A stretch of 32,000 nucleotides of DNA from Synechococcus sp. A15-28 (GCF_014280175.1 NZ_CP047931.1:360001-392000); one strand, 5' to 3'. Positions 15,805-30,701 are shown, counted from the first letter of the stretch. A program made the numbers and translations. The notes: generated by a model not told the origin, from the letters alone.

Positions 15805-15895
15805 ACCACTGCTGTCAGAATGACAGGGTTCGGTTCTCCGGACTAGGTGATCCACACCAGTGTTTCGGACAGCGGTTCGATTCCGCTCAGCTCCA
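15805..15895 (+). ncRNA. ssrA: tmRNA acceptor piece of a permuted two-piece ssrA (5' boundary approximate)
   Basis: GGACTAGG...TGTTTCGGAC is followed by T arm AGCGG-TTCGATT-CCGCT (15871-15887), 3' acceptor strand CAGCTCC (15888-15894) and discriminator A (15895). CCA is not encoded. Confidence 0.8.
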
Positions 15896-15910
15896 TTCTC
15901 CCTTTCACGA

Positions 15911-16110
15911 GGGGCTGCAATGGTTTCGACGGGGCATGAGGAGGGTGACTGAAGCCTGCTCGGTGAGAGCAAACCCGTAACTGCGAACAACATCGTTCGT
16001 TTCTCCCGTCAAGCAGCCCCTGTTGCTGCCTGACCCTTAGGGGAGATGGGGTGAAGTCAGCCTTATCACCCAATTGACTCATGGGGGCTGTAAGGCCCCT
16101 TCAACTCATC
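15911..16110 (+). ncRNA. ssrA: tmRNA coding piece of the permuted ssrA (3' boundary approximate)
   Basis: Begins GGGGCTGCAATGGTTTCGACGGGG. GGGGCTG pairs with CAGCTCC, giving the G3:U70 alanine identity pair. The tag frame at 15983-16033, GCG AAC AAC ATC GTT CGT TTC TCC CGT CAA GCA GCC CCT GTT GCT GCC TGA, encodes (A)NNIVRFSRQAAPVAA*. Terminal hairpin at 16084-16099. Confidence 0.8.
16064..16086 (+). repeat. att core copy 1 (attL), within the tmRNA coding-piece 3' region
   Basis: TATCACCCAATTGACTCATGGGG. Its partner at 24925-24947 differs at one base. Confidence 0.75.
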
Positions 16111-17159
16111 CCAAGGGAACGGATCTGGCAATTACGCCAGAGCCCGAAAAATCCCTTTCCGACAAATCTTCCGACAAGCTCCCGCCCGTCTTTGCCGGGC
16201 TAGATAAGGCGGAGGCTTTGGCCTACGTCAGCCGCTTGTTTGATGCGGCAGCCGCCGGCGCCGTGCTCTGGGGGGACAAGCTCCTCCTGAAGCGATTCCT
16301 TGAGCAGTGCTCGCGCACCGGCTCCCAGGAGACCAAGGACGGCTATCGGCGAGAGCTGCAGCACTTCACTCGCTGGCGTGACCAGAACCACCCACACATG
16401 CACCTGAGGGAACTCGATCCCGCGCTGGTGGATGACTGGGTCTCTTCCTTGCGTGAGCAGGTGGAGGCAGGGGAGCTAAAACCGCGTTCCTTCAACCGCC
16501 GCATCAGTGCGGTGAGCGCCCTTTACCGGTGGGCCGCGGAACCTACCCGATCAACTGTGTCAGGAGTGCCGCGGAACCCAGTCCCCCGAAGAACAGGAAT
16601 GTCGGCACCAAAGTTGGCCAAGCCGTTGGCTGAGTCTGATCTGACATCAGTCCTGGGAGTCATCAGTGCCGCGAAGGTAAAAGGCTCCGCCATTGCTGCG
16701 CGTGACTATGTGATGGTCCGCGGTTCGTATCTGATTGGTTGTCGCGTGTCTGAACTGTGCCGGCTCCGCTGGCAGGACATTGAGCGATTGGATAACGGCG
16801 GTCAGGTTTCCCTTTTGGGCAAGGGGAACAAGCCCCGCACGATTCGTGTCAGCGTCGCAACCTTGGAGCTGTTTGAGTCGTTGGGCCGCGGCGAGCCTGA
16901 AGACTGGTTGTTTCCGAGCGACCGGCGTGAGGGCCCAATGACTCGTCAGGCAGTCGCAGCTCGCATGGCGAGGTGGGGAAAGGAGGCTGGGGTGAGGCTC
17001 TATCCGCATCGTTGTCGTCACACGCATGCCACGAATGCTGTTCGCGCTGGGACAAGCCTTTTTGTTTTGCAGGCAACTCTTGGCCACAGCTCATCTGCAA
17101 CGACTGGTCATTACGTTGCCGCCAACCCTGAAGACAGTTCTTCTCTACGACTTGGGTGA
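16074..17159 (+). CDS. Tyrosine recombinase / phage-type integrase (int1)
   Basis: Catalytic signature R (GCRVSELCRLRW), HxxR (HRCRHTHATNAV) and H...Y (LGHSSSATTGHYV). The longest ORF starts at a TTG inside the att core. The true start may be downstream, for example TTG 16218. Confidence 0.88.
   Translation: MTHGGCKAPSTHPKGTDLAITPEPEKSLSDKSSDKLPPVFAGLDKAEALAYVSRLFDAAAAGAVLWGDKLLLKRFLEQCSRTGSQETKDGYRRELQHFTRWRDQNHPHMHLRELDPALVDDWVSSLREQVEAGELKPRSFNRRISAVSALYRWAAEPTRSTVSGVPRNPVPRRTGMSAPKLAKPLAESDLTSVLGVISAAKVKGSAIAARDYVMVRGSYLIGCRVSELCRLRWQDIERLDNGGQVSLLGKGNKPRTIRVSVATLELFESLGRGEPEDWLFPSDRREGPMTRQAVAARMARWGKEAGVRLYPHRCRHTHATNAVRAGTSLFVLQATLGHSSSATTGHYVAANPEDSSSLRLG
16157..16177 (+). promoter_or_regulatory. 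Doublet TTCCGACAA-N3-TTCCGACAA (candidate arm-type recombinase site, left end)
   Basis: TTCCGACAAATCTTCCGACAA. Nearly the same doublet, in the same orientation, occurs at 24789-24808. Confidence 0.45.
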
Positions 17160-17550
17160 CGTAAGCAGAATTGTGTAAAGTCGTTTTTAATTGCAATTAG
17201 GCATAAAGAAGGGGACAGTTTTCACATGCCCCCTTCCCTGCCTGAAGTTTGCAAGGAGCACCCCTGCACATTCAATTTAGCGCCATTGCTCCGCTTGTAG
17301 GAGCTTTTTTAATGGCAAAACTGCCCTAAAGCTCTGCATTTGAGCTTATTTTGTTCAAATGATGGCTAGAATATGATTGTCACTCTGGAGGCTTAAATGA
17401 CTGTCAGAGATCCATTGACTGTCAAAGAGGTGCGAAAACTTTGTGAGTCGCGCTTACGCATCTAGCGGGATCAATCTACTCCTGATGATGATCTGCCGAA
17501 TGTTCCTGAGTGTCCACTGACTAATCCGTCAATCCATCGACTTATTGACA

Positions 17551-17955
17551 ATGTTTGATCTCGATCAGGAAGTGGCTAAAGCCCACCAGTCTGTAACCGA
17601 AATAGAGAGCCAGGCCAGGGCGATTGAGGCACGAATCAAGAAGATTGATGGGGCTGACAACCTGCTGCCCAAGAGGGCCTATGGCAAATCCATTGATACC
17701 GCTGCAATCGCCAGATCTTTAACCCTGCGTTCTTTGCTGGCAAAGAACGATCCCCAGCTCGCCAGTTACTTAGGTGTGGGCACCGATGCCCACATCAGAG
17801 CAGAAGAGGAAAAGGAAGCTCGCCGTCTGCGCGCACAGGCCCTGGGGATGAAGACTGAAAAGATTCGCGCTCAAAATCAGGCTGCTGCCCTTCATCGAGA
17901 GCGTGCTTCCCTTGCTGGGGTTAGTCCATTGACAGGCCGGAGGCTTGGACAATGA
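17551..17955 (+). CDS. Hypothetical coiled-coil protein
   Basis: ATG at 17551. First gene of a + strand cluster whose members overlap by ATGA. Charged helical composition with no recognisable motif. Confidence 0.5.
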   Translation: MFDLDQEVAKAHQSVTEIESQARAIEARIKKIDGADNLLPKRAYGKSIDTAAIARSLTLRSLLAKNDPQLASYLGVGTDAHIRAEEEKEARRLRAQALGMKTEKIRAQNQAAALHRERASLAGVSPLTGRRLGQ

Positions 17956-18293
17956 GAACTGCTAAGTGCCATCCTCAGCTCGGCTGGCTTCGGCTTGAGC
18001 CTTACGACTATTCACGCTCACTGGATCACCTTTTGGCGTGTAGGGACAGAGATTCTGATCTGACTCGTAGCGGGCCTAGCCCGGAGTACATCAGTTGGAT
18101 GTGGTCGACGGAGCTGCCTGGGCTGATGCGGAAGGAGAAATACAGAGATCAAGTTCGTCAGCACTGTTCTGACCTTGCTCGTAAGTCCGAGGAGTTGGAC
18201 ATCGACATCCGTTCGATTGTCGGGTCGAAATTGGAGCAGCAGGCAAAAGCCGACGAGTTAAGAGCACAACTGACTGCGCTGTTGGATGAATGA
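17952..18293 (+). CDS. Hypothetical protein
   Basis: 113 aa with ATGA overlaps at both the upstream and downstream junctions. Confidence 0.5.
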   Translation: MRTAKCHPQLGWLRLEPYDYSRSLDHLLACRDRDSDLTRSGPSPEYISWMWSTELPGLMRKEKYRDQVRQHCSDLARKSEELDIDIRSIVGSKLEQQAKADELRAQLTALLDE

Positions 18294-18508
18294 TCACTTC
18301 CGATGTTCAGCATGTCGCAACAGTTCTTGCGTCTACCCATCGCCAACATCCAGAGACCTTGCATTCTTTGGTGCCGATGTTCGGCGGACTGATCGTGATC
18401 ACCAACCGCCAGCTCCTTTTGCACCTGCTGGATACGGAGACTGATTGGCCATGGCAAGAGCCACCGCAGCAGAGACCGCCGAACGGGTTGGTCAGCTCCA
18501 AAAACTGA
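18290..18508 (+). CDS. Hypothetical small protein (doubtful)
   Basis: 72 aa. Overlaps the previous stop by ATGA but overlaps the next gene by ~58 nt. Confidence 0.3.
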   Translation: MITSDVQHVATVLASTHRQHPETLHSLVPMFGGLIVITNRQLLLHLLDTETDWPWQEPPQQRPPNGLVSSKN

Positions 18509-18810
18509 TCCTTGAAGGTCAAAACAGCGCGTCTTGTCTTGCCTTTGCGAGACAAACGTGGGGGCTCAGCCGAGCGCAGGGTTACAAGCTGATCAAGAGA
18601 GCGTGGGCTCAGATCAAAGACGACATCGAAGAGGCCGGCATAGATCGGCACGAAATGCTGGCTTGGTCAATCCAGAACTTGATGGCGGCGGCAGGCCAGG
18701 CAAAGCAGCAGAAGAACCCCGGCGCTTTGGTGAGCGCCATTCGCCAGCTTGATTGGATGTGCGGTCTTGGCGTCAACTCACATGCCGGGCATCGAGTCCA
18801 CAGGCATTGA
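18451..18810 (+). CDS. HTH-containing protein, paralog of 31585-31965 (possible small-terminase-like or regulatory protein)
   Basis: ATG 18451 is preceded by GGAG. N-terminal HTH-like segment LILEGQNSASCLAFARQTWGLSRAQGYKLIKRAW. Aligns by eye with the 126-aa ORF at the window end (L.LI..G...A......WG.SR). Confidence 0.55.
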   Translation: MARATAAETAERVGQLQKLILEGQNSASCLAFARQTWGLSRAQGYKLIKRAWAQIKDDIEEAGIDRHEMLAWSIQNLMAAAGQAKQQKNPGALVSAIRQLDWMCGLGVNSHAGHRVHRH

Positions 18811-18910
18811 GTGTCGTAATAGATATTGCGCCTCTGGCAGACGAGATCGACATTTGATTAGTAATTAGGTTTTGACTGCTTTCGTCGATCGAATTGATAA
18901 CTGAGTCGTC

Positions 18911-19210
18911 TCAGTTGGAGATGAAACAGTTGTCTGGTGTGTAGCCAAGGAGCAACATCGTTGAGATTCCCAATAGCCACCCAACGAATACCGCTCCCCA
19001 AATTAATTGGTCTGTGCTGAGATTTACGTTCCTCATAAGTGTTCCTCGATACATAGATTGTTGCATCTTGCACTTGCAATCATTGCTTGCTTCGTTTGGC
19101 GATGCTGTATCGATTGTATGTTTAATCAAAAATGGTTTAACCATCCAAAACTTTTCGTCATAGGCAGTCAGAACAAGGATTGCAGAAGCTGCGGCTGGTG
19201 GGACCCACAA
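18911..19210 (-). CDS. Hypothetical two-TM membrane protein
   Basis: TTG start with two hydrophobic helices (AAASAILVLTAY; LIWGAVFVGWLLGISTMLLLGY). Third gene of a minus-strand trio of small membrane ORFs. Confidence 0.4.
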   Translation of the reverse strand: MWVPPAAASAILVLTAYDEKFWMVKPFLIKHTIDTASPNEASNDCKCKMQQSMYRGTLMRNVNLSTDQLIWGAVFVGWLLGISTMLLLGYTPDNCFISN

Positions 19211-19228
19211 GGTTGACCGACGTCTGAA

Positions 19229-19318
19229 TCAGAATGACTCAATCAACCAAGTCACTATGGATAAGGCAATAGCAACTATCAAGAGCGTTGCTTTCTTCGG
19301 CTTCCGCTTCAAAGCCAT
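19229..19318 (-). CDS. 29-aa single-TM peptide
   Basis: MALKRKPKKATLLIVAIALSIVTWLIESF. Not in the ORF track. Lies 4 nt downstream of the preceding small ORF. Confidence 0.35.
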   Translation of the reverse strand: MALKRKPKKATLLIVAIALSIVTWLIESF

Positions 19319-19322
19319 TAGG

Positions 19323-19421
19323 TCAACCAGCTGTGAACAAGGTAAACAGCAGCAAAGAGGCCCACACAGCAATCAGCAGGGTCTTTCGATTGAGCTTCTG
19401 ATCAGTATTGTCAGCTGGCAT
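19323..19421 (-). CDS. 32-aa single-TM peptide
   Basis: MPADNTDQKLNRKTLLIAVWASLLLFTLFTAG. Not in the ORF track. Confidence 0.35.
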   Translation of the reverse strand: MPADNTDQKLNRKTLLIAVWASLLLFTLFTAG

Positions 19422-19721
19422 TGGAGGTGTTTGTAGAGCCTTCGTTAGGAATCCTGTGTATCACCAGTTGCTGCTGCAGAAGGTTCAGGAGCAGCACTTT
19501 CAACAATATGGAAGCGGTTAAGACCTCTAGAGGGATGTGAGTCAGGAGTTCAGAGCTGGCTCATGTGATTACGCCGGTTTTAGCACAATCGGTTTTGTCG
19601 GATCCTCGCTGAGTTTTGCGGTATCTGATTACACATCTATTAAGGTGTAAGGCCATAAGCCCTGTTTTTACGTTGTTGTCGAGGCTATATGTTGTGTGAG
19701 TTTGTGAGGGGGAGAACAGGT

Positions 19722-20195
19722 TCAGGACTTTCCCTTTGCTTTCTCCAACTGGCCGATGATGAAATGCCGGTACTGTGCGGCTAGATCTTGAAATCCCTGT
19801 TCAACCAAACCGGCAATCACGTCAACCGCATCGTCTTCATGCTCGGGAATCAGCATTACCCCACGTTTGCGGCCAAGGATCATCTCCTGAATGATCGTTT
19901 GCGTCTTGCGTGGTGTGCCTGAGGGCTCCTCAAGTACTTCCTGGGCAGGAATGAATCGCGCACGGTGCTGATCATCGGAATTGATCTGTGCAATGAAGCA
20001 ATACTGAGCACCATTAATCTCGACCAATCCCCTGAATTCGGAGAGGTCTTCTGTGGCATCAACACAACAGAAGTTGTTGCTCTGGGATGGTGCTTTTCCA
20101 TCAAAGCCACGAATTCTGGTGATAGTCGCTTTGGCACTGAAAGACTCCTGAGTCAGCCGGGTTACCAACGACTCACATATGGTTCGCTTATTCAA
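19722..20195 (-). CDS. Hypothetical protein (island cargo, no recognisable domain)
   Basis: 157-aa ORF in low-G+C DNA downstream of the replication module. Confidence 0.55.
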   Translation of the reverse strand: MNKRTICESLVTRLTQESFSAKATITRIRGFDGKAPSQSNNFCCVDATEDLSEFRGLVEINGAQYCFIAQINSDDQHRARFIPAQEVLEEPSGTPRKTQTIIQEMILGRKRGVMLIPEHEDDAVDVIAGLVEQGFQDLAAQYRHFIIGQLEKAKGKS

Positions 20196-20292
20196 GACAA
20201 ATTAGAGTCAAGCCATATTTGAGCTGCTTCAAGCGCTACTATTTGTAGCTGCTGATACTTTTTGAGTCCGTCTACTGACTTGACGCAATTTT

Positions 20293-20334
20293 GATTACGA
20301 AGAAAGGGCCAGGAGTATCAGTGCTATCCTGGCC
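20293..20334 (-). terminator. Probable intrinsic terminator after the 128-aa cargo gene
   Basis: On the minus strand: GGCCAGGA-(12 nt)-TCCTGGCC followed by CTTTCTTCG, starting 10 nt after the stop at 20344. Confidence 0.5.
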
Positions 20335-20343
20335 TGAGGAGTT

Positions 20344-20730
20344 TTATGAACTGGCTGTAAGCGTCCAGATTTTTTTGTCAGTTATCCAATCTATTTGGTG
20401 AATAGCATTACCGAATGTCCAATGATACGACTCATAAAATCCTTCCCAGGATTGGCAATGAGGCTGAAAAATTTCTACTTTGTATATCCAAATTTCATAC
20501 TCACAATCCCACGCACCGCAGATGTTTGCGTTTTTGTACTTCCAGCACCCTGCGCCAGAATAGTCCAACGCTATGTTTTGAGGTTTGCTTTCTGATTTAA
20601 AGCGTTTAAGTAATCCCCCGAGTAATTCATTGATCTTGTTTTGGATTAAATCTGTGTGTTCGGGGCTGTCTTTGTATAATTCATCTAAGTACGACGAAAT
20701 TTCTTGGATAGTGCAATGGTGAAAAGACAT
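20344..20730 (-). CDS. Hypothetical Cys/Trp-rich protein (island cargo)
   Basis: 128-aa low-G+C ORF with no recognisable motif. Confidence 0.55.
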   Translation of the reverse strand: MSFHHCTIQEISSYLDELYKDSPEHTDLIQNKINELLGGLLKRFKSESKPQNIALDYSGAGCWKYKNANICGAWDCEYEIWIYKVEIFQPHCQSWEGFYESYHWTFGNAIHQIDWITDKKIWTLTASS

Positions 20731-20761
20731 AGTGTGATTGTTGGAAGGGTTTAGACGTTTT

Positions 20762-20782
20762 TACTGTCCCTACTGTCCCTAC
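20762..20782. repeat. Tandem TACTGTCCC x2 (+TAC) between the primase-helicase and cargo genes
   Basis: tactgtccc tactgtccc tac, followed by an 8-bp-stem hairpin CTCTTTTC-aataaata-GAGAAGAG at 20783-20806. Confidence 0.8.
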
Positions 20783-20839
20783 CTCTTTTCAATAAATAGA
20801 GAAGAGATAGGGAGTATGTAAGAGAGTGAACAAGTGGTG

Positions 20840-22834
20840 TTAGCGGGTCTGGACGGGATGGCCACTTGTCAATGGCGGGAAAAATGCGTTGACCCGTTGC
20901 CCGTCGATGCGTCTTCGCGCCTTGTGCCATCCCAGGTCTGCCATCAGCTCAGTAATGCGCTTCGCGTTTTGGCCGTTCTGGCGTTCAGCGCCAATGTCCA
21001 ATTCGCGATAAACGTCCTGGAGCTCGATGTATGCAGCACCAGATCGCCTGAGCACGATGTCTCGGATCAACTCTTCCCAAGGGTCTGGCATGTCGTAACC
21101 CGCATTACGGGAAACGATTTCATCCAGCTCTGATTCAGTACTGAACCACTGGAAGCCATCTCGATAGGCAGCCAAGGCCCGGGCCCAGAACGCATCACGG
21201 CCAAGCCGAACACGTTCGTAGGGGAGCATCTCTTCACCGAGCGGAATCAAGCAGAAGCGTGTGCTGCCAGTTCGATCAACCAATGGCGATCGATTTGCTG
21301 TTCCCCAGAACACTGAGCGCCGTGGGATTCGTTCCGTGCCCTTGCCGTACTTTCGCCGACATAAGTCGGTTGTTCGGCTGATGAAGGCCTTGAGCCTTTC
21401 TGCACTGGTTTTGCGAGTGAAGCCATCAAATTCGGCAAACTCGACCCCCCAGCAGAGCGCCATCAGGGTTACATCGTCGACATCCATGCGAAAGCTAATT
21501 CCGTCGCCATACCACTGATCACTGAACAAGGCCCGTCCAAGTTGTGTCTTGCCGATGCCCTGGGCTCCCAGGAGAACTGGCACCTGCCGGACTAAGCAGC
21601 CTGGCTGAAACACCCTGGCAATCGCTGCCACAGCGAAACGCTGCATGAAGCGAGCGGTGATGGCGTCGTCGATGTTGAACAGCCACTGGTCCAAGCGTTC
21701 CCATTGCTCGTTTGGCAACGGTTTTGCTTTCAGGTTTCCGATGTAGATCTGCACCGGATCAAACGGAGTATCAGCGCCCAGGGTGATGAAGGTGTCTGCT
21801 GTAAGCCGCTTCGGCCAGTTCAACTCGCCACGACTTAGGTACAGATAAAGGTTTTCGACTTCGTCTGCAGTGAACTCTCGTCCTTTGCAGTGAATCCCCT
21901 GGCTCCTCACGTTGAGCATTGGGGTTTCCCCCAGCTCATCAGTCATCCGAGCCAATGCTTCGCCGGCCTTGACCGTTTTCTGTTTCCGCAACTCGTGTTG
22001 CGACACATCCAGTCGGAACAAGGCCGCTTCACCAACGGCAGTGGTTTTGTCGCCGGAGTAAATCCAGCTGTTCCCATTCCGTTCAATCTTTTCGCGTAGC
22101 TCCAGTTTTGGTGGAGCCCACCGCTTGCCTATGTGGCAAAGGATCGCCTGGCCATCGCTGCTGATACGACAGTCCGGTTCCTTCCGCCCGCAGATGGGAC
22201 ATGGGATGCAGTCTTCCCAACCATCGGCTCGTAGGCCATGAGTCTTTCTTGAGTTGGTAGGGGCCGGGGAGCTGCACTCGCTGATGGCCGTCTGGTACAT
22301 CGCCCAAACTTCATCCGGCACTGGCTGGATGGTGTCGGGATTGCCCGTCAACCAGGAGTAATGACCTCCAGATTTGACGTGTTCGCCTGCCACAAGGACC
22401 TGGCCGCTGCCGAAGAAAAACTCCAGTTGCTCGCCGTCGGCAGTCTTTAAGACGGTTTTGCCAGTGCACTGACTCCACCGTTCTTGAGGCACGCGATAGA
22501 CGGCCTTGAAGCGGCTTTGATTGTTATCACGGCCAATCGTCCAGGTCTTGCTGTTGTTGGCAAGGTGCCCGAAACGCTCTGCCGCAACGTGAATTGCGGA
22601 AGGGCCGTCAAAGTCCAGAACCAGTAGCCCCCCGGCGTCTGGCCCACACCTCATTCCGATGCAGCGAAGTCCGTCGAAGTTGAGAACCTGCTGAAGGCTG
22701 AACCATTGGTTCGGCCAATCGGTCACCATCGGTGCTTTGCAATCAGCCCCCCAGCCACAGGGGAGCAACGGCAACTCATCAAGCAGCCTGAATTCTTCCC
22801 GCCACCAAGCGGGGGTTTGTTGTGTCGCTGTCAT
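20840..22834 (-). CDS. Bifunctional primase-polymerase (PrimPol) fused to a VirE/D5-type SF3 helicase
   Basis: 664 aa. N-terminal PrimPol pattern (LPLLPCGWGADCKAP...GLLVLDFDG). Central Cys cluster CIPCPICGRKEPDCRISSDGQAILCH. Walker A GAQGIGKT, Walker B VEFAEFDG and the VirE-type motif DRTGSTRF. Confidence 0.9.
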   Translation of the reverse strand: MTATQQTPAWWREEFRLLDELPLLPCGWGADCKAPMVTDWPNQWFSLQQVLNFDGLRCIGMRCGPDAGGLLVLDFDGPSAIHVAAERFGHLANNSKTWTIGRDNNQSRFKAVYRVPQERWSQCTGKTVLKTADGEQLEFFFGSGQVLVAGEHVKSGGHYSWLTGNPDTIQPVPDEVWAMYQTAISECSSPAPTNSRKTHGLRADGWEDCIPCPICGRKEPDCRISSDGQAILCHIGKRWAPPKLELREKIERNGNSWIYSGDKTTAVGEAALFRLDVSQHELRKQKTVKAGEALARMTDELGETPMLNVRSQGIHCKGREFTADEVENLYLYLSRGELNWPKRLTADTFITLGADTPFDPVQIYIGNLKAKPLPNEQWERLDQWLFNIDDAITARFMQRFAVAAIARVFQPGCLVRQVPVLLGAQGIGKTQLGRALFSDQWYGDGISFRMDVDDVTLMALCWGVEFAEFDGFTRKTSAERLKAFISRTTDLCRRKYGKGTERIPRRSVFWGTANRSPLVDRTGSTRFCLIPLGEEMLPYERVRLGRDAFWARALAAYRDGFQWFSTESELDEIVSRNAGYDMPDPWEELIRDIVLRRSGAAYIELQDVYRELDIGAERQNGQNAKRITELMADLGWHKARRRIDGQRVNAFFPPLTSGHPVQTR

Positions 22835-22848
22835 AGGGGTGCTCCGAT

Positions 22849-23106
22849 TCAGCGACGTGGCGAGCAGTCACGCGAGAAGGTTTCAACCTCTTCGCTCGGC
22901 TGGTGTTTGTAGTTCCACAGGCTCTGGATTGCCTGCTCTTTGTTCCATCGGATCTTGCGTGTGCCAAGTCCGACGTACTGCCAGTCCCGATGCTGTTTGA
23001 ACGGGCCGTTCGGGTCCCGTCGCATCCGAAGAATGGTTTCTGGGCAAAGATCAGTCGCTTCAGCGAACTGTCTTGTTGACGCAATCGACATTGCGATAAC
23101 TCGCAC
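22849..23106 (-). CDS. Excisionase/AlpA-like HTH protein (Xis-like), paralog of 25339-25608
   Basis: STRQFAEATDLCPETILRMRRD...WQYVGLG...EVETFSRD aligns with STQECADALGIHPQTLRKLRRH...YRWVGLS...AVETYSRG. Start is GTG 23106 or ATG 23091. Confidence 0.65.
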   Translation of the reverse strand: MRVIAMSIASTRQFAEATDLCPETILRMRRDPNGPFKQHRDWQYVGLGTRKIRWNKEQAIQSLWNYKHQPSEEVETFSRDCSPRR

Positions 23107-23108
23107 CC

Positions 23109-23432
23109 TTAGGTGCGGGGGGTGCCATCCCAGTTCTCGTGATGCAGAAGTTCGCGCTGGAGGGCTGCGTAAAAGTTCCGCAGCTTGTCCCGTCGCTTCT
23201 GATCGGGGTTGCCCTGCTCAAGGGTGCCGATGCGGAAGTCGGGGTCGTCCATACGGGCGCGCTTCTTGGTGAAGTAGCGGACTTGCCGCTCGGCGTACCG
23301 ACGATCGACTCCCTTGGGAGTCAACATCTCGACGCGAGTGGGGATGGGCCGATCAGGACCTTGCATCCAACTTGGATGACGTTTTCGGTTCGATCCCTCG
23401 GCGCAGACGTGATGCTGCGTTCCCGACTTCAC
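23109..23432 (-). CDS. Hypothetical basic protein between int2 and the xis-like gene
   Basis: 107-aa ORF co-directional with int2; its stop lies 2 nt before the xis-like start. Confidence 0.5.
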   Translation of the reverse strand: MKSGTQHHVCAEGSNRKRHPSWMQGPDRPIPTRVEMLTPKGVDRRYAERQVRYFTKKRARMDDPDFRIGTLEQGNPDQKRRDKLRNFYAALQRELLHHENWDGTPRT

Positions 23433-23500
23433 CTAGTTAACTTAACACCACTGATCGCGATCGTCAGGCAATCTCCCTACCGATGACACCAAATGTGGTG

Positions 23501-24760
23501 TCAGGGCAACGGGATCGTCTCCGCGTCTGACTCAAAGGCCCGAGCTTTGATCGCCTCTGTGATCTGCCGATAGCTGCGCTCATGCACCGCGAGTGAGTGC
23601 CCCATCGCATCCGCGATCACCGTCTTCTCCAGCCCCTCCCGATAGCAGCGAACTCCGAAGCCATCTCTCAGCGAATACACCCGAACCCAGTCCTTCGTCG
23701 GGAGCGCGGCGTATTTATCGATCAGCTCCTTCCACCGCTGCTGAACCGGCCCGGCTGGCTTCCCGTTGCGCTTCCTGTGGAGGTAGCGATTGCAGGCGTG
23801 ACCGGTGAACTCCTTCAGGTCCGGCAGCTTCAACGTCCCCGCCTCCCACGCTTCCACCAGCGGCCACTGCACCGGCTTGTCGTGCTCCGATCGCCGGAAG
23901 TGCATTGGGCGGAGATACCGCGGCTCGGTGTCCTCCTGGCCGCCGACCTTCTCGTAGGAGCAATAGAAGACCCTCTCGCCGGTCTTGCTCGTCGGGTCCG
24001 GCTCCACTGTTAGGTGCTGGATCTCGACTGGACGTAATCCGTATTGCGCCAGCAGTCGGAACAGGTTTGCCCAGGCCGGGTTCTCCTGTTGCACCAGATC
24101 GATGAAGTCCAGGATCTCGGCGTCCTCCAGCACGGCCTTCTTCCGTTTCCTTGTCCGCTTGGGGCACAGCTCGTCACGGTCGGCCTGGGTGATGAGCCAG
24201 GAGCGCGGGACCTTGTATCGGCGGACCGCGAACTCCATGAACCGGGCCAGATACCGGCCACATTCCTTCTGGACTGTTGGGGCATGGGCCCAGTTCTTCA
24301 GCACGGCCTTGAGCAGCTCGTAGCCATCGGCAGGTTTATTGCGCCGGCCCAGCACCCTCACCGCTTCATTGAGGATCGGCTCCCAGTTGGTTTTCCAGGT
24401 CTGCGGCTTGATCTGCTTGCCGAACTCAATTTTCGATTCCTTCATGGCCGCGGCAATGCCGGCCCAGGTGACCTCATCCCCCCTTTCGGGGGGAACGTCG
24501 CTGCTGCCCTTCACCTCCGCCAGGCATTCCTTCAGCGTCCGCTGCCCTTCGGCTGCGCTCCAGACCTTGTAGAGCCGGCGTGACCAGTTGATCGCCGCCT
24601 CCTCGTCCTCCTCCCGATAACGGAGCTTGGGGAGGTTCACCTGCTCCCGCGCTTGGCCGGCTACCCGGTATCGGATGCAGACGTATCCCTTGTCGTTGGT
24701 GATGCTCCAGCCGGGCCACTTGCTGCTGATCGACACCAGCCGCATCTCCCACACGGGCAT
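23501..24760 (-). CDS. Tyrosine recombinase / integrase (int2), a different family from int1
   Basis: R (YGLRPVEIQHL), xLRD box (VYSLRDGFGVRC) and H...Y (MGHSLAVHERSYR). ATG at 24760 (MPVWEMRLVS). The ORF track extends to TTG 24808 across the arm-type repeats. Confidence 0.85.
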   Translation of the reverse strand: MPVWEMRLVSISSKWPGWSITNDKGYVCIRYRVAGQAREQVNLPKLRYREEDEEAAINWSRRLYKVWSAAEGQRTLKECLAEVKGSSDVPPERGDEVTWAGIAAAMKESKIEFGKQIKPQTWKTNWEPILNEAVRVLGRRNKPADGYELLKAVLKNWAHAPTVQKECGRYLARFMEFAVRRYKVPRSWLITQADRDELCPKRTRKRKKAVLEDAEILDFIDLVQQENPAWANLFRLLAQYGLRPVEIQHLTVEPDPTSKTGERVFYCSYEKVGGQEDTEPRYLRPMHFRRSEHDKPVQWPLVEAWEAGTLKLPDLKEFTGHACNRYLHRKRNGKPAGPVQQRWKELIDKYAALPTKDWVRVYSLRDGFGVRCYREGLEKTVIADAMGHSLAVHERSYRQITEAIKARAFESDAETIPLP

Positions 24761-24788
24761 CTCGCTGAGATTGCGACGCGGCACGCTC

Positions 24789-24808
24789 TTCCGACAAATT
24801 TCCGACAA
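24789..24808 (+). promoter_or_regulatory. Doublet TTCCGACAA-N2-TTCCGACAA (candidate arm-type site, right end of element 1)
   Basis: TTCCGACAAATTTCCGACAA, in the same orientation as 16157-16177. Confidence 0.45.
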
Positions 24809-24924
24809 ACAAGTCTTGTTTGGTTGTCGACGGTCGTCAAGGGTTGCCTACGGGATTAGGCTGTGACTGGCTTTTCTCCGAGAAGCCCTGAAACCAATGT
24901 TGTCGTAATCAGGCGAGTCATGCC

Positions 24925-24947
24925 TATCACCCAAATGACTCATGGGG
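24925..24947 (+). repeat. att core copy 2 (junction between element 1 and element 2)
   Basis: TATCACCCAAATGACTCATGGGG. The flanks are also similar to the 16051-16105 region, including a hairpin at 24945-24960. Confidence 0.75.
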
Positions 24948-25000
24948 CCTGGAAGGGCCCTTAACCATTTCACTGCAGGCGATCTCGGCAAACCTGGTTT

Positions 25001-25040
25001 TCGGGATAAATCAGCTTCGGGATAAATCTCGGGATAAATC
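25001..25040 (+). promoter_or_regulatory. Three direct copies of TCGGGATAAATC (candidate arm-type or iteron sites)
   Basis: Exact 12-mers at 25001-25012, 25017-25028 and 25029-25040, beginning 54 bp right of att core copy 2. Confidence 0.55.
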
Positions 25041-25338
25041 GCTCGGAGCGGCTCTGTGCAGTCGACAGGCGCTGATGAGACCCCTAAGTTCTTAGTGCGA
25101 GGTCGGAGCCGTCCGATCTTGAAAGCAGCGCAGACCAGGTCCCAACGACCCTGCGTTAGTCAAATGAGAGGTAGCCCTGTCAGCGGTTCTCTCGGCTTGG
25201 TTGGGCAAGTGTTTCTGACAGGTCGCAATCGGTGGAGTAAAGCAGCAAGCCGCAAGCGGAAACAGCTACAGGACGGCGAAGACGAAGGGATGGCTTAGCG
25301 GACGGCCTGACCTGAAGCTCGCTCAGCACAGAGATGCT

Positions 25339-25608
25339 GTGACCGCAACCAACGCTGCCGTGACCCAATGGGTCTCCACCCAGGAGTGCGCTGACGCTCT
25401 TGGCATTCATCCACAAACGCTGCGAAAGCTCCGGCGTCATCGGATCCCGCTTTTCAAGGAAGGCCGCGACTACCGATGGGTTGGCCTCAGTACCAGCAGC
25501 ACCCTTCAGTGGCATGTCCACAGTGCGAGCCAGGCGTTCACCGATTTCCGTTTGATGCCTGCTGAGGCGGTTGAGACCTACAGCCGTGGGAGCAGAGCCC
25601 ATGCCTGA
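25339..25608 (+). CDS. Excisionase/AlpA-like HTH protein (Xis-like), paralog of 22849-23106
   Basis: See the alignment under 22849-23106. GTG start at 25339 or 25360. The antisense 157-aa ORF is rejected. Confidence 0.65.
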   Translation: MTATNAAVTQWVSTQECADALGIHPQTLRKLRRHRIPLFKEGRDYRWVGLSTSSTLQWHVHSASQAFTDFRLMPAEAVETYSRGSRAHA

Positions 25609-25891
25609 ACAACTCATGTCCGAGCTTGATGTGATCGAGTTGCCGGATGGCACCAGTCACAAGGTCAAAGGTGATGTCATCTCCGTTTTGATTCCGAGGA
25701 AGGATCGGAAGTGCTGGGTGGTACTTCATCTCCAAATCAGCAGAGACAACACGCTTCACTGCCACCTGCGTGGCGGCCACTGGGACTCAATGGCTCACAA
25801 CTGCGATCCAGACAGAACATTCGATCTGGATTTTTACAACGCACTTGAATCTGAAATCAGAGAAGACATGGAGGCCAGTGATGTCCGCTGA
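25601..25891 (+). CDS. Hypothetical protein
   Basis: ATG at 25601 overlaps the xis-like stop (ATGCCTGA); 96 aa. Confidence 0.45.
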   Translation: MPEQLMSELDVIELPDGTSHKVKGDVISVLIPRKDRKCWVVLHLQISRDNTLHCHLRGGHWDSMAHNCDPDRTFDLDFYNALESEIREDMEASDVR

Positions 25892-26099
25892 TCTCTACAC
25901 CCGCCCGCTTCGTGCTTCGGTGCGTGAGCTTCTACAGGAAGACAACATCGACATCGCTGAAGCTCTTTATTCCGACTGCGATTATCCAACAGCACTCAGC
26001 AATCTTGCTGAAGTTCGTGTAGCTGCGCAGAAGGTGGTATTTGAAGCTGATGCGTTGATGTGCGCAGTGCTTGTTAAGGCGATAGGAGAAGACGATTGA
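25881..26099 (+). CDS. Hypothetical acidic protein
   Basis: ATG at 25881 overlaps the previous stop by 11 nt; 72 aa. Confidence 0.45.
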   Translation: MSADLYTRPLRASVRELLQEDNIDIAEALYSDCDYPTALSNLAEVRVAAQKVVFEADALMCAVLVKAIGEDD

Positions 26100-26185
26100 A
26101 TCATCATATGGGCGGGTAATTCTCGCCCATTGTTGACACTTTTAGTTCATCTCTCAAAATGGACTCATAAGATAAATTGGATCTT

Positions 26186-26356
26186 ATGAAATTCAAGCCG
26201 CGTTGCAAGTATCCGCACATTGCTGCGACATACCTAAGCGATGAACTGCTCAATGAAGTCAACAAATTTTGCGTCGACAACGAATGCAGCAAATCAGAAG
26301 GAATTCGCCTCCTGATGCAGAACGGCCTTGCCGCAATGCTTCTGGACGAGGCATAA
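26186..26356 (+). CDS. Ribbon-helix-helix (CopG/Arc-like) DNA-binding protein
   Basis: 56-aa ORF not in the ORF track: MKFKPRCKYPHIAATYLSDELLNEVNKFCVDNECSKSEGIRLLMQNGLAAMLLDEA. It shows a beta-strand, helix, SKSEGIR, helix pattern. Confidence 0.55.
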   Translation: MKFKPRCKYPHIAATYLSDELLNEVNKFCVDNECSKSEGIRLLMQNGLAAMLLDEA

Positions 26357-26397
26357 AAAAACCACCGTGCCAGCGGTGGCTCAAAAATCAGGTTCCC

Positions 26398-26592
26398 ATG
26401 AAGTCTACTTTGAAAAGACCATCATTCCCAGATGACTGGGAACAGGAGCCAGCGTCTCCGTTGGTCCTTGATCAGGTACTGAGTCCCGAGTGGCAAGACC
26501 TTGCTTTGCTAATGGCCTGCAGGGAAATTGCCAAGATGAATCGGCTGACATTGGAAGAACAGCTTCATTGCTGGAGGCCTTTTGATGTCTAA
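26398..26592 (+). CDS. Hypothetical protein upstream of, and overlapping, the helicase start
   Basis: 64 aa starting at ATG 26398. Its stop overlaps the helicase ATG at 26585. Confidence 0.4.
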   Translation: MKSTLKRPSFPDDWEQEPASPLVLDQVLSPEWQDLALLMACREIAKMNRLTLEEQLHCWRPFDV

Positions 26593-28258
26593 ACCGGATG
26601 AGAACAAGGATGCCTGGGAACGACTAGTTGTTCTTAAGGAGTTGGATCGCGATTCAAGCTTTAAGCCAGGCTATGACTACAAGACAGATCTCAAGCTCGC
26701 ACTCAGAAAGCGTGATGAGCCCGTTACTACGGTCACGAATAGATCCGCAAAAAATACCAAGCCGCTGGTTCTTAGCACTGCAGAATATATTGAGGAATTA
26801 AGTAAGAAGGCCGACATAATCGTTGCCGACACCAGCATCCCAACGACACACCGGCTCATCCATCTCCGCAACGTAGCGACCGGCTTCCCAACGAGCTTTA
26901 AGGATGCGGAGTTACAGAGATTGCTTTGGGATGCAAGGCGTAGACTGGCTCCAGGTGCAAAGCCAATAGGCCAAGGCGGGAAATTATCAAGACGTCAAGC
27001 TCCCTGGTTGTGGGATGGCATCCTTATCAAATCAACGACCAACTTGGTTGTTGCATTACCAAAGGTCGGCAAAAGCCGTCTGATAAGCCAGGTTATTGGC
27101 AGGCTTGCCAAAGGTGAAGATGAGTTTCTTGGTCGCAAGCTCTTTGGTCCCTGCCCACCAGTCTTGATAGTTGGGACTGATCAACCAGAGCCAGATTGGG
27201 CAGAGTGTCTGGGTTTAGCCGGTCTTTTAGATGCCGATGGCGCAATGCACTCTTGCATCAAAGAGCTGTATCACACCGGTTGTCCTCTTCATTTAGATGA
27301 GGATGGTATTGACCGGATAACTGAGCTATGTCGGCAGTATCCAGGAATGCTTATCCTGGTTGATAGCTATGCAAAATGTACGAATAATTTGGGAATTGTG
27401 GAGTCAGATTCGCAATACGCTGGCCCGCTTATGGATTTGCAGGAAGCGACTGCGCCATATGGTGCGACCTTGGTCGTGATTCATCACAGCAACCGAAATT
27501 CAGCAGGCGGTCGTGCTTCGATGTCCTCTCGTGGAACAACTGCATTACCTGCAGCAGTTTCACAAACGATCAGCTTGACCTGGGCCAACGCAGATGATGC
27601 AAACCCGTTAGCTAAGCGTGATGGCCGCGTCAAACTCAACACCGAAGGACGTGGTGGCAAACCACAGGATCTTCTAATTGAGCAGATTGAGGACGGTCAC
27701 GACTGGCTCCTCCACGGAACTGGTGAGGAAATTGCAGTACAGAGTGCGCTTGAGAAGCTGATAGAGGCTTTGACAGATCGCCAATATGCTGCGCTTAGAG
27801 ATATGGCTCATCACTACAACGCCACTGGTTGTGGAATGGATGCTCGGCATCTTGCAGATGCCCTTGATCTGTCACCACACGGCAGAGTAAAGGCGCAAGA
27901 AGTACTGGATTCGCTCAACAGGAAGAAGTTAATTGAGCCTGCCGGCAACCGGCCTGCGTTGGGATCTGACGGTGGCAAACCTGCAAATCTCTATCGGCCA
28001 GTTGACGCAGTCCTTCCCTTGTTTGCATTATCAGCTTCTATACCTTTCAAACCTTCTATTGATAACGTAACGGTTACGAAAACAAAAGAAGGTATAGAGG
28101 ATATGAAAGGTGATTCTTTATACAAGGAAATGATGCTCACTTGTGAATGCTGTGGCAAGGAGTTTGCTGCCAACAAAAAAGGAACGGCCAAGAAATACTG
28201 TTCGGAGACCTGCAGGGTTCGTGCGTATCGCGATCGCAAATCTCGCAATGCTGCTTAG
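26585..28258 (+). CDS. RepA/AAA_25-like RecA-fold replicative helicase with C-terminal wHTH-like region and zinc ribbon
   Basis: Walker A LPKVGKS, Walker B MLILVDSY and VVIHHSNRN. C-terminal CECCGKEF...CSETCRVRAYRDRK. Confidence 0.85.
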   Translation: MSKPDENKDAWERLVVLKELDRDSSFKPGYDYKTDLKLALRKRDEPVTTVTNRSAKNTKPLVLSTAEYIEELSKKADIIVADTSIPTTHRLIHLRNVATGFPTSFKDAELQRLLWDARRRLAPGAKPIGQGGKLSRRQAPWLWDGILIKSTTNLVVALPKVGKSRLISQVIGRLAKGEDEFLGRKLFGPCPPVLIVGTDQPEPDWAECLGLAGLLDADGAMHSCIKELYHTGCPLHLDEDGIDRITELCRQYPGMLILVDSYAKCTNNLGIVESDSQYAGPLMDLQEATAPYGATLVVIHHSNRNSAGGRASMSSRGTTALPAAVSQTISLTWANADDANPLAKRDGRVKLNTEGRGGKPQDLLIEQIEDGHDWLLHGTGEEIAVQSALEKLIEALTDRQYAALRDMAHHYNATGCGMDARHLADALDLSPHGRVKAQEVLDSLNRKKLIEPAGNRPALGSDGGKPANLYRPVDAVLPLFALSASIPFKPSIDNVTVTKTKEGIEDMKGDSLYKEMMLTCECCGKEFAANKKGTAKKYCSETCRVRAYRDRKSRNAA

Positions 28259-28700
28259 ACCTGTGCAGCAAGCACCAGCGTCTTCGGGATGCGCCTCAGC
28301 CCACCGGCAACGTATGCCTCCCAGCAAGTGGCCGTGGCAGATCCGGTGCGCTGAAAGTTTTCTCAGCGAAAACTTCCACAAAGTCAACTTTACGAGAGAT
28401 ACCTCCTAGAGGGCAGGCCAAAGCACGAAACGGCCTGTGTGTACCTTCAACGATGAGATTTCCAAGCGATTGGGCATTGGTGATGTGGATCGTCATGGGT
28501 AAAACCTTATTTCCTTTGGTCTAAGCCTGCTCATTCGGAGGATGTCGTACCACATCTCACCAAACAAAAGTTTTCAGCCACATCAACGTAACGTGTAATT
28601 TTCCTCTAACGGCTTAGGTGATGTAAAACAGTCACGCCAAACAGCAATGTACGCTTTCCATTGCTACTAATCTACGGATATCCCGCGCCAGACTGACGTC

Positions 28701-30606: not shown

Positions 30607-30701
30607 GAGAATGCAATACCTAACATTATAATGGCTAAGTACCGTCAAAAATGTGGATCTAGAACGCAAGTCGTTCAGAGACGCGCCCGATACCGATACC
30701 G

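What the first reader, a model, noticed from the sequence alone, without database searches (positions are those of the whole stretch)
16074..24808. Element 1 carries two unrelated tyrosine recombinases, one at each end facing inward, with the same TTCCGACAA doublet inside both ends
int1 (16074-17159, +; HRCRHTHAT...GHYV) abuts the left att copy. int2 (23501-24760, -; SLRDGF...HERSY) abuts the right att copy, and the two share no obvious similarity. TTCCGACAAATCTTCCGACAA (16157-16177) and TTCCGACAAATTTCCGACAA (24789-24808) lie ~70 bp inside the left core and ~117 bp inside the right core. Both are in the same orientation, as expected for arm-type sites of one attP split by integration. Either one element uses two recombinases, or an int1 remnant (16.1-19.7 kb) and an int2 element (19.7-24.9 kb) have fused without a recognisable internal att. 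I cannot tell which integrase matches the arm sites.
Basis: partly seen in the sequence, partly recalled or inferred. Interest (0 to 1): 0.7.

Follow-up and report, generated by a model that had tools for sequence, protein, structure and literature searches.

The report
tmRNA island with two tyrosine recombinases
An 8.9-kb self-replicating mobile island sits in the tmRNA gene of a marine Synechococcus; its far-end integrase (int2) is the one that matches the repeated TTCCGACAA sites on both arms, and the Xer-like recombinase next to the tmRNA (int1) is a conserved but optional passenger whose role is unknown.

Summary
A 47-nt tmRNA-derived direct repeat (16055-16101 / 24916-24962) bounds an 8.9-kb element. 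int1 faces inward at the left end and int2 at the right. Perfect TTCCGACAA doublets lie just inside both ends, in the same orientation.

- int2 is a divergent lambda-type integrase with a predicted N-terminal beta-sheet arm-binding domain.
- 36 of 43 non-redundant tmRNA-targeting relatives carry a perfect doublet just upstream of the gene.
- The motif tracks the int2 N-domain class.
- Elements without int1 carry matched doublets on both arms.
- int1 copies 88-91% identical to this one sit next to a different motif.

int1 is an Xer-like recombinase without an arm-binding domain. It is under purifying selection and moves horizontally. It is always the first gene after a tmRNA core.

There is no internal att remnant. 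A relative with 62-75% protein identity keeps the same layout and motif, and attP-like junction contigs (int2, arm, core, same arm, int1) exist for two other classes. "One element, two recombinase genes" therefore fits better than a recent fusion, although one decayed, mismatched element exists.

This is a tycheposon-like element, a new variant of a known kind.

The parts
15812..16099 (+). Two-piece (permuted) cyanobacterial tmRNA gene, the integration target. Its 3' end is the left att copy.
   Evidence: Rfam RF01851, 309.9 bits. ARAGORN tag peptide ANNIVRFSRQAAPVAA.
16055..16101 (+). attL copy of the 47-nt direct repeat (core TATCACCCAATTGACTCATGGGG plus the terminal hairpin).
   Evidence: The same core bounds related elements in other genomes.
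16157..16177 (+). P'-arm doublet TTCCGACAA x2 (12-bp spacing), 93 nt from the core start and about 23 nt upstream of the conserved int1 start.
   Evidence: The same motif lies at the same place in L001. A P'-side doublet sits 83-94 nt from the core start in most related elements, with or without int1.
16074..17159 (+). int1, an Xer-like 'simple' tyrosine recombinase. The conserved body runs 16200-17156. The open upstream extension 16074-16199 has only a TTG start, which lies inside the tmRNA core.
   Evidence: PF00589 plus PF02899. XerC/D/A-like but below the NCBIfam cut-offs. The AF2 model has no beta-sheet N-domain, and residues 1-33 have pLDDT of about 30. dN/dS is 0.07-0.24. More than 326 homologues at E<=1e-30.
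17288..17347 (+). Two terminator-like hairpins downstream of int1.
   Evidence: consensus scan only.
17545..18810 (+). Three small conserved ORFs (17545-17955, 17952-18293, 18445-18810) of unknown function. They form the left-hand backbone of this element family.
   Evidence: Homologues lie in the same order in L001. They also occur in int2-type elements without int1 (L006 element X, L050, L061/L064). No Pfam or PHROG hits.
19722..20730 (-). Low-GC (45-47%) stretch with two unknown ORFs (19722-20195, 20344-20730); probable variable cargo.
   Evidence: Composition profile. No family hits. No homologues in the related loci.
20840..22834 (-). PrimPol plus VapE/VirE-like helicase, the replication module.
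   Evidence: PF09250 (E=2e-10) and PF05272 (E=2e-48). PHROG helicase/primase families. Syntenic next to int2 in L001, L003, L015, L043 and L044.
22849..23106 (-). Small ORF homologous (37% identity; homology 22870-23079) to the HTH_17/excisionase-like protein of Element 2; candidate Xis or regulator.
   Evidence: tblastn. Weak, sub-threshold HTH_17 and DUF1233 hits for the Element 2 homologue. A homologue lies next to int2 in most related elements.
23109..23432 (-). Conserved 107-aa ORF between the xis-like gene and int2; function unknown.
   Evidence: Homologues at the same position in L003, L018, L044, L050 and L058.
23501..24760 (-). int2, a divergent lambda-type (heterobivalent) tyrosine integrase that faces inward at the distal end.
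   Evidence: AF2 model pLDDT 88. N-domain: helix, three strands, helix. Then a disordered linker, a core-binding domain and a catalytic domain. Foldseek: Tn1549 Int, full-length lambda Int, Cre. Conserved catalytic residues. The family has 246 50%-identity clusters at E<=1e-30.
24789..24808 (+). P-arm doublet TTCCGACAA x2 (11-bp spacing), 28 nt upstream of the int2 ATG and 136 nt from the core start.
   Evidence: The same position and motif occur in L001, L002, L040, L042 and L043. Family-wide feature.
24916..24962 (+). attR copy of the tmRNA 3' end. The hairpin is kept by compensatory changes. This is the right boundary of Element 1.
   Evidence: In L003 the same boundary abuts host genes directly.

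Best explanation
Element 1 (about 16.06-24.96 kb) is a tycheposon-like element integrated into the 3' end of the tmRNA gene of a marine Synechococcus. It can probably replicate on its own.

Integration and excision are most likely carried out by int2. int2 is a lambda-type heterobivalent tyrosine integrase. Its C-terminal domains would act on the tmRNA-derived core. Its small N-terminal beta-sheet domain would bind the TTCCGACAA doublets. In the circular form the doublets lie about 136 bp (P arm) and 93 bp (P' arm) from the core start. A small HTH protein encoded next to int2 probably sets directionality. Because each doublet lies 23-28 nt upstream of an integrase start codon, int2 binding would probably also repress both genes.

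int1 is a second, Xer-like recombinase gene placed in the P' arm. It has no arm-binding domain. It belongs to one sub-lineage of these elements, is kept by selection and moves horizontally. The int2 family as a whole does not need it.

Its most likely job is arm-independent recombination at the shared tmRNA core. That could mean resolving multimers of the replicating circle or recombining neighbouring att copies in tandem arrays.

Shown: the anatomy, the covariation of motif with the int2 N-domain, the conservation of the layout, and purifying selection on int1.
Inferred: int2 binding to the doublets, repression of both genes, and everything about the activity of int1.

The confidence of 0.66 applies to three points: the identity of the element, the assignment of the arm sites to int2, and int1 being a genuine co-resident gene. 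The proposed activity of int1 alone would rate about 0.3.
For: 1. Boundaries and module: the tmRNA, the 47-nt repeat, and PrimPol-VapE next to an inward-facing distal integrase.
2. int2 domain layout and fold.
3. 36 of 43 non-redundant tmRNA-targeting int2 relatives have a perfect 8-11-nt doublet within 110 nt upstream of the gene. The spacing is 11-12 bp and the distance to the core start is typically about 127 bp. Pairs share a motif 8-mer in 23/26 cases at >=85% N-domain identity, 9/23 at 70-85%, 8/138 at 50-70% and 0/443 below 50%.
4. A test case: P0006 and P0007 are 68% identical to int2 overall but have a different N-domain. They carry TCCAGACA(A) instead of TTCCGACAA.
5. att-bounded elements without int1 have the same motif on both arms: L001-E2 CCGGATAA, L006-X GTGACCC, L018 GGGCCTAAAA, L061/L064 CAGGACAAAT, L013 GTGACCAT.
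6. int1 copies 88-91% identical to the window's are preceded by TGTTGCCAA, which is the motif of the P0020 class of int2. An int1 only 75% identical keeps TTCCGACAA.
7. L001 (int2 62%, int1 75%, PrimPol 51% identical) has the same gene order and the same motif at both ends.
8. attP-like junctions (int2, doublet, core, same doublet, int1) occur in L045/L057 (TCCTGACAA) and L046 (TGACGACAAA).
9. int1 has dN/dS of 0.07-0.24. Its identity is decoupled from host genes: SMC 74% with int1 88% in L004, but SMC 87% with int1 61% in PROS-U-1.
10. In L120, where no int2 lies within 10 kb, the doublet has decayed.
11. No internal att remnant or extra doublet exists inside the element.
Against: - No binding or recombination data exist.
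- The window's int1 lacks the usual ATG (CTA at 16200). It has only a TTG start, inside the tmRNA.
- Several relatives are pseudogenes: L004 and L121 have frameshifts, L005 has a stop, L006-Y is truncated and L059 has two stops.
- In cultured strains and MAGs (PROS-U-1, HIMB2401, L120, L121) int1 heads long islands with no int2 or second core within 10 kb.
- One att-bounded 4.3-kb element (L058/L059) has different motifs on its two arms and a frameshifted int2. Fusion and decay products therefore do occur.
- The attP-like contigs could be head-to-tail tandems rather than circles.
- The proposed activity of int1 at the core rests only on adjacency and on its lack of an arm-binding domain.
Confidence: 0.66

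Rival explanations
1. Fusion or decay product. int1 would be the leftover integrase of an older tmRNA island, and the int2 element would have been joined to it by loss of the att copy between them. The pairing would then be an accident with no joint function.
For: - int1 often stands alone at the head of long islands.
- int1 pseudogenes are frequent.
- The window copy has lost the canonical ATG.
- L058/L059 is an att-bounded unit with mismatched arms and decayed genes.
- Junctions of int2, core and int1 between different elements are common in tandem arrays.
Against: - There is no att remnant or second doublet between int1 and int2.
- The left doublet lies outside int1, between the core and the gene, and matches the int2 motif exactly. 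int1 is therefore inside the excisable unit.
- The same matched layout persists in L001 at 62-75% protein identity.
- Matched arms flank int1 and int2 across a single core in two other int2 classes.
- The genes at 17.5-18.8 kb belong to int2-type backbones.
- int1 is under purifying selection.
Confidence: 0.2
2. int1 is the integrase that uses the doublets and the tmRNA core, and int2 is a passenger or serves another site.
For: - int1 is the gene next to the tRNA-like target, which is the usual place for an island integrase.
- The doublet is about 23 nt upstream of its conserved start.
- The int1 frame is open through the doublet.
Against: - int1 has no arm-binding domain.
- The motif does not follow int1 identity.
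- Elements without int1 carry matched doublets on both arms.
- The motif follows the int2 N-domain.
Confidence: 0.04
3. The doublets are mainly operators or promoter elements that regulate the two integrase genes, not architectural arm sites for recombination.
For: - Both doublets lie 23-28 nt upstream of a start codon.
- In the viral-contig relatives the doublet is 7-14 nt from the int2 start.
Against: - P'-side doublets occur at a near-constant 83-94 nt from the core start in elements with no gene nearby.
- The P-side distance to the core clusters at 127-137 nt.
- Both arms carry the same orientation, as expected for an intasome.
- The two roles are compatible, so this is more an addition than a rival.
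Confidence: 0.1

Closest known systems
Tycheposons (Hackl et al., bioRxiv 10.1101/2020.12.28.424599; seen in Synechococcus by Grebert et al. 2022, PMC8995045)
   Same: - Picocyanobacterial host.
- Integration at a tRNA or tmRNA gene, leaving a partial copy at the far end.
- Tandem accumulation in an island.
- An inward-facing, deep-branching tyrosine recombinase at one end.
- A small replication module (primase/polymerase with a VirE-type helicase) next to it.
- A small xis-like gene.
- The distal position of the recombinase matches what Grebert et al. report for Synechococcus.
   Different: - Two tyrosine recombinase genes flank the attachment site, one proximal and Xer-like, one distal.
- Neither paper held in the library mentions arm-type sites or paired recombinases.
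- I could not test whether int2 falls inside the published tycheposon recombinase clade.
Lambda Int and Tn916/Tn1549 Int (heterobivalent tyrosine integrases with arm-type sites)
   Same: - Three-part layout: a small N-terminal beta-sheet domain, a core-binding domain and a catalytic domain.
- Repeated arm sites on both sides of a core that differ from the core sequence.
- An adjacent small HTH or Xis candidate.
- The best structural matches are Tn1549 Int and lambda Int.
   Different: - 14-18% identity and no Pfam hit.
- Tyr replaces the first His of the H-x-x-R box (Y362).
- Only one tandem doublet per arm, in direct orientation.
- The doublets sit immediately upstream of the integrase genes.
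Xer-type simple recombinases encoded next to their site (XerS/difSL, XerH/difH; Cre/loxP of P1)
   Same: int1 has only core-binding and catalytic domains. It scores best against XerC/XerD/XerA profiles. It is always immediately adjacent to one conserved DNA element, the tmRNA core.
   Different: - Its scores are far below the XerC/D cut-offs (128 bits against 279-335).
- It is on a mobile island, occurs in more than one copy per genome (L001) and is often a pseudogene, so it is not the chromosome-dimer resolvase.
- Its site and activity are unknown.
Elements with several tyrosine recombinases (Tn554 TnpA/TnpB; recombinase-in-trio elements)
   Same: More than one tyrosine recombinase gene on one mobile element. 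This comparison rests on my own knowledge and was not tested here.
   Different: In those elements the genes are adjacent, co-oriented and jointly required. Here the two genes diverge from attP, they are not consistently paired, and many relatives have int2 alone.

Membership tests
Tycheposon (definition in Hackl et al. preprint) | Site-specific integrase, usually a tyrosine recombinase of a lineage specific to tycheposons | tested here: inconclusive
   int2 is a deep-branching tyrosine recombinase with no Pfam hit. No reference tycheposon recombinase sequences were available to place it in that clade.
Tycheposon (definition in Hackl et al. preprint) | [quoted passage not shown] | tested here: met
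   int2 23501-24760 (-) faces inward at the distal end. PrimPol-VapE at 20840-22834 lies two small genes away.
Tycheposon (definition in Hackl et al. preprint) | Integrated at a tRNA or tmRNA gene and flanked by a full and a partial copy; accumulates in islands | tested here: met
   tmRNA at 15812-16099 and a partial copy at 24916-24962. A second element follows. Tandem arrays occur in L001, L006 and L018.
Tycheposon (definition in Hackl et al. preprint) | Shared hallmark genes (primase/helicase, xis, regulators) and cargo for adaptation or phage interference | tested here: inconclusive
   PrimPol plus a VirE/VapE helicase and an xis-like HTH are present. The cargo ORFs have no recognisable function.
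Lambda-type heterobivalent integrase (int2) | Tyrosine recombinase catalytic residues | tested here: met
   R243, K271, R365 and Y397 are invariant and H388 is nearly invariant (>=90%) in 37 relatives. Y362 replaces the first His of the H-x-x-R box.
Lambda-type heterobivalent integrase (int2) | Separate N-terminal arm-binding domain (three-stranded sheet plus helix) | tested here: met
   AF2 model: helix 3-13, strands 18-23, 26-31 and 39-47, helix 50-70, pLDDT about 90, then a disordered linker at 87-94. This is a prediction only.
Lambda-type heterobivalent integrase (int2) | Arm-type sites on both arms of attP, different from the core and specific to the integrase | tested here: met
   Doublets on both arms. 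The motif co-varies with the N-domain. Matched arms occur in elements that have only int2.
Lambda-type heterobivalent integrase (int2) | Demonstrated binding of the N-domain to arm sites, and a requirement for them in recombination | not testable with these tools
   Needs gel-shift or footprinting and excision assays.
XerC/XerD chromosome-dimer resolvases (int1) | Score above the curated family cut-off; single-copy core gene acting at dif | tested here: not met
   TIGR02224 scores 121.7 bits against a 335 cut-off; TIGR02225 scores 118.8 against 329.6. There are two copies in L001, pseudogenes are frequent, and identity is decoupled from the host.
Simple (arm-independent) tyrosine recombinase (int1) | Core-binding plus catalytic domains only, with catalytic residues intact | tested here: met
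   PF02899 plus PF00589. The AF2 model is all-helical before the catalytic domain, and the N-terminal 33 residues are disordered. R224, K250, H312, R315, H338 and Y347 are conserved.

The most novel reading that the evidence does not exclude
The int1 gene may be wired into the attachment site itself.

- Its reading frame runs open from the conserved start, back through the int2 arm doublet and the crossover core, into the tmRNA gene. This holds in 17 of 17 distinct loci.
- An in-frame ATG (TTG in this window) inside the tmRNA 3' end occurs in many lineages.
- No promoter-like site was found between the tmRNA and int1.

If real, site-specific recombination would swap the upstream transcription context of int1. 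int1 would then be made as a 3' extension of the abundant ssrA transcript only when its element sits first in the array, and int2 bound at the doublet would block it. That would be a recombinase whose expression reports the integration state of its own element.
Probability: 0.15. Interest if true: 0.75.

Novelty: new variant of a known kind. Interest (0 to 1): 0.55.

Why it matters
Genomic islands next to tRNA and tmRNA genes hold much of the flexible gene pool of marine picocyanobacteria. Tycheposons were proposed as the vehicles that build them, but the library copies of the two tycheposon papers I searched do not mention arm-type sites.

This locus and its relatives give a concrete attP map: a core, with one tandem doublet about 130 bp away on one side and about 90 bp away on the other. 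They also give a readable specificity code between the integrase N-domain and the doublet. The motif next to a core can therefore predict which integrase class owns each element in a tandem array. For example, it predicts the missing integrase of Element 2 in this window.

The analysis also shows that a second, widely conserved Xer-like recombinase rides in the P' arm of one sub-lineage. This gene is annotated in many Synechococcus genomes simply as the integrase next to the tmRNA. It is probably not the enzyme that inserted the island, which matters for how such islands are annotated and engineered.

Tried and rejected
- Third att remnant: I ran a fuzzy search for the 36-nt core (up to 11 mismatches) and a local alignment of the tmRNA 3' end against 17160-23500. 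The only hit was a 17-nt match inside the PrimPol gene, at chance level (score 29; shuffles reach 28).
- Other doublets or iterons inside the element: none.
- A conserved site downstream of int1 that could be its own target: nothing is shared beyond the coding end.
- int1 as a vertically inherited host gene: rejected, because its identity is decoupled from the flanking SMC and RlmL genes.
- P0036, the int2 relative in the same genome as L004, as the distal partner of that island: rejected. It sits at tRNA-Thr with no tmRNA core.
- Scans that yielded little: the genome-contig scan with int1 gave only 4 loci. The viral-contig scan with int1 gave none. The first metagenome scan, with the wide alignment, failed for lack of conserved columns. 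The look-up of P0053 (PROS-9-1) was not on record.
- Codon-position test on the int1 upstream extension: only a weak third-position excess (27/27/44), so it is not decisive.
- Promoter scan: no consensus sites near either integrase start, which is uninformative for cyanobacteria.

Full report
**1. What is in the window**

The host part of the window has 63-70% GC and carries SMC, RlmL and a two-piece cyanobacterial tmRNA gene at 15812-16099. The same SMC-RlmL-tmRNA order occurs in marine Synechococcus genomes such as PROS-U-1 and HIMB2401.

The last 47 nt of the tmRNA region (16055-16101) recur at 24916-24962 with 85% identity. The 23-nt core occurs nowhere else in the window. GC falls to 45-60% between the two copies and stays low after the second. 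The window therefore holds at least two tandem islands. Element 1 is the 8.9 kb between the copies.

**2. Gene content of Element 1**

From left to right:
- int1, on the + strand.
- Three small conserved ORFs.
- A low-GC stretch with two unknown ORFs.
- A PrimPol plus VapE/VirE-type helicase (PF09250, PF05272).
- A small ORF related to an HTH_17/excisionase-like protein.
- A conserved 107-aa ORF.
- int2, on the - strand.

int1 has the Phage_integrase and SAM-like domains and resembles XerC/XerD/XerA, but scores far below their family cut-offs. int2 has no Pfam hit. Its AlphaFold model (pLDDT 88) is a tyrosine recombinase whose best matches are Tn1549 Int, full-length lambda Int and Cre. R243, K271, R365, H388 and Y397 are conserved in 37 relatives, and Tyr362 stands where the first box His usually is. 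BLASTP finds no similarity between int1 and int2.

**3. The doublets**

Exact TTCCGACAA occurs four times in the window, as two tandem doublets on the + strand at 16157/16169 and 24789/24800. In the whole 32 kb only three perfect tandem doublets of 9 nt or more at 10-13 bp spacing exist. They are these two and TCGGGATAA at 25017, which begins Element 2.

**4. Which integrase owns the doublets**

I collected int2 relatives from the protein database, from genomes and from metagenomes.

*A family-wide feature.* Of 43 non-redundant relatives that sit beside a tmRNA core, 36 have a perfect 8-11-nt doublet within 110 nt upstream of the start codon. The spacing is 11 or 12 bp, and the doublet typically starts about 127 bp from the core start.

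*The motif follows the N-terminal 50 residues.* The share of pairs with a common motif 8-mer falls with N-domain identity:

| N-domain identity | Pairs sharing a motif 8-mer |
|---|---|
| >=85% | 23 of 26 |
| 70-85% | 9 of 23 |
| 50-70% | 8 of 138 |
| <50% | 0 of 443 |

*A test case.* P0006 and P0007 are 68% identical to int2 overall but have a visibly different N-domain. I predicted a different motif for them and found TCCAGACA(A).

*The predicted fold fits.* The model shows an N-terminal helix, a three-stranded sheet and a helix, joined by a disordered linker to the rest of the protein. This is the layout of the lambda Int arm-binding domain.

*Elements without int1 have matched arms.* Five att-bounded elements carry the same motif on both arms:
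- L001 element 2: CCGGATAA.
- L006 element X: GTGACCC.
- L018: GGGCCTAAAA.
- L061/L064: CAGGACAAAT.
- L013: GTGACCAT.

*The motif does not follow int1.* int1 copies 88-91% identical to the window's (L004, L006) are preceded by TGTTGCCAA, the motif of the P0020 class of int2. The int1 of L001, only 75% identical, keeps TTCCGACAA. The int1 model has no beta-sheet N-domain.

I conclude that the doublets are arm-type sites of int2.

**5. One element or a fusion?**

Evidence for one element:
- There is no core-like remnant and no further doublet between the two genes.
- The left doublet lies between the core and int1. Recombination between the two cores would therefore carry int1 out with the element.
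- L001 comes from a genome whose RlmL is 70% identical to the window's. It has the same order: tmRNA, doublet, int1, three small ORFs, PrimPol, int2, doublet, att copy. It also has the same motif at both ends, although int2, int1 and PrimPol are only 62%, 75% and 51% identical.
- Contigs L045/L057 and L046 show int2, doublet, core, the same doublet, then int1, for two other int2 classes (TCCTGACAA and TGACGACAAA). This is what an excised circle or a head-to-tail tandem of such an element would give.
- The ORFs at 17.5-18.8 kb occur in int2-type elements that lack int1. They therefore belong to the int2 backbone and not to an int1 remnant.

Evidence for fusion or decay:
- L058/L059 is one 4.3-kb att-bounded unit with CTCATCCAAA beside int1 and TGTTGCCAAA beside int2. 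Its int2 is frameshifted and its int1 has two stops.
- In PROS-U-1, HIMB2401, L120 and L121, int1 heads long islands with no int2 or second core within 10 kb.
- In L120 the doublet has decayed. This fits loss of its integrase.

**6. What int1 is**

- The family is large and well conserved: more than 326 proteins at E<=1e-30, 60-97% identical.
- It is always the first gene after a tmRNA or a tmRNA core copy.
- dN/dS is 0.07-0.24.
- Its identity does not follow the host. In L004, SMC is 74% and int1 88% identical to the window's. In PROS-U-1, SMC is 87% and int1 61%. int1 is therefore mobile.
- Nothing downstream of it is conserved. The only constant neighbouring DNA is the core and the P' arm.

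From this I infer, without proof, that int1 acts on the core without using the arms. It could resolve multimers of the replicating circle or recombine att copies in arrays.

**7. An unexplained detail**

The int1 frame is open for 46-83 codons upstream of the conserved (M/L)DKAEALAYV start in all 17 distinct loci. In every case the first upstream stop lies to the left of the core. The other two frames usually contain stops.

In seven loci an ATG inside the tmRNA core is in frame; in the window it is TTG at 16074. The window's subclade has Leu instead of Met at the conserved start, so it needs an upstream start. The left-arm doublets next to int1 are spaced 12 bp apart, in frame, and encode xxK[S/T]xxK. 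The right-arm doublets are spaced 11 or 12 bp.

Three results argue against simple translation of this stretch:
- Three loci have no start codon in it.
- The codon-position signal is weak.
- The stretch is predicted to be disordered.

No promoter-like site lies between the tmRNA and int1, but the scan is crude. I leave this open.

**8. Comparison with what is known**

The element fits the published tycheposon description in these respects:
- a tRNA or tmRNA target with a partial copy at the far end;
- an inward-facing deep-branching recombinase at one end;
- a small replication module beside it;
- tandem accumulation in an island.

Grebert et al. note that the recombinase is distal in Synechococcus and proximal in Prochlorococcus. 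Here both positions are filled, by unrelated genes. The library copies of these papers do not mention arm-type sites or paired recombinases.

The int2 mechanism I propose is the lambda Int paradigm. A profile of the int2 family finds 246 clusters at E<=1e-30 among 1.84 billion representatives, so the family is sizeable but specialised.

**9. Verdict**

The arm-site reading is supported and is now assigned to int2. The two-recombinase layout is a conserved variant of a known kind of element and not an accident, but no joint function is shown. I rate it of moderate interest.

Noticed in passing
window 16074-16199 (and L001, L005, L008, L059, L093, L120 and others): The int1 reading frame stays open upstream of its conserved start, through the arm doublet and the att core, in 17 of 17 distinct loci. 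An in-frame ATG inside the tmRNA 3' end is common (TTG in the window). The window subclade has Leu (CTA) instead of Met at the conserved start.
   Followed up: partly
window 24963-32000: Element 2 begins right after the right att copy. It has TCGGGATAAA x3 at 25002-25040, an HTH_17/excisionase-like ORF at 25339-25608 and an AAA_25 protein at 26582-28258. No integrase lies inside the window. Relatives L090, L097 and L098 show the int2 class that carries TCGGGATAAA doublets, so the missing integrase can be predicted.
   Followed up: partly
L057 1890-2270; L045; L046 1500-1830: attP-like junction contigs: int2 start, doublet, tmRNA core, the same doublet, int1 start. The motif is TCCTGACAA in L045/L057 and TGACGACAAA in L046. 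These are either excised circles or head-to-tail tandems.
   Followed up: partly
L058 and L059 (99.75% identical over 4064 bp): A 4.3-kb att-bounded mini-element without PrimPol. It has different doublets on its two arms (CTCATCCAAA and TGTTGCCAAA), a frameshifted int2 and an int1 with two stops. It looks like a decayed fusion product.
   Followed up: yes
L062 240-299: Six tandem copies of CAGGACAAAT at 12-bp spacing lie upstream of an int2 relative, where its relatives have the usual two. This is an expanded arm-site array.
   Followed up: no
L014 1-10780: This contig begins and ends in the tmRNA core and contains one complete element (int2 relative, VapE protein, xis-like gene). It is either a circular form or an assembly break at the repeat.
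   Followed up: no
L011 9458-11188: A 30%-identical int2 relative sits directly beside tRNA-Thr(CGT) at the edge of a satellite-like element with a helicase, a VapE protein and a terminase-like protein. The family therefore also targets tRNA genes.
   Followed up: partly
window 16101-16117 and 21067-21083: The 17 nt just after the left core (TCAACTCATCCCAAGGG) recur with one mismatch inside the PrimPol gene. The alignment score is at chance level.
   Followed up: yes
window 16157-16177 versus 24789-24808 (also L001, L045, L057): The same motif is spaced 12 bp apart on the arm next to int1 but 11 bp apart on the arm next to int2.
   Followed up: partly
L007 1-7728: The contig is a palindrome with int1 fragments at both ends. 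This is probably a single-cell assembly artefact.
   Followed up: no
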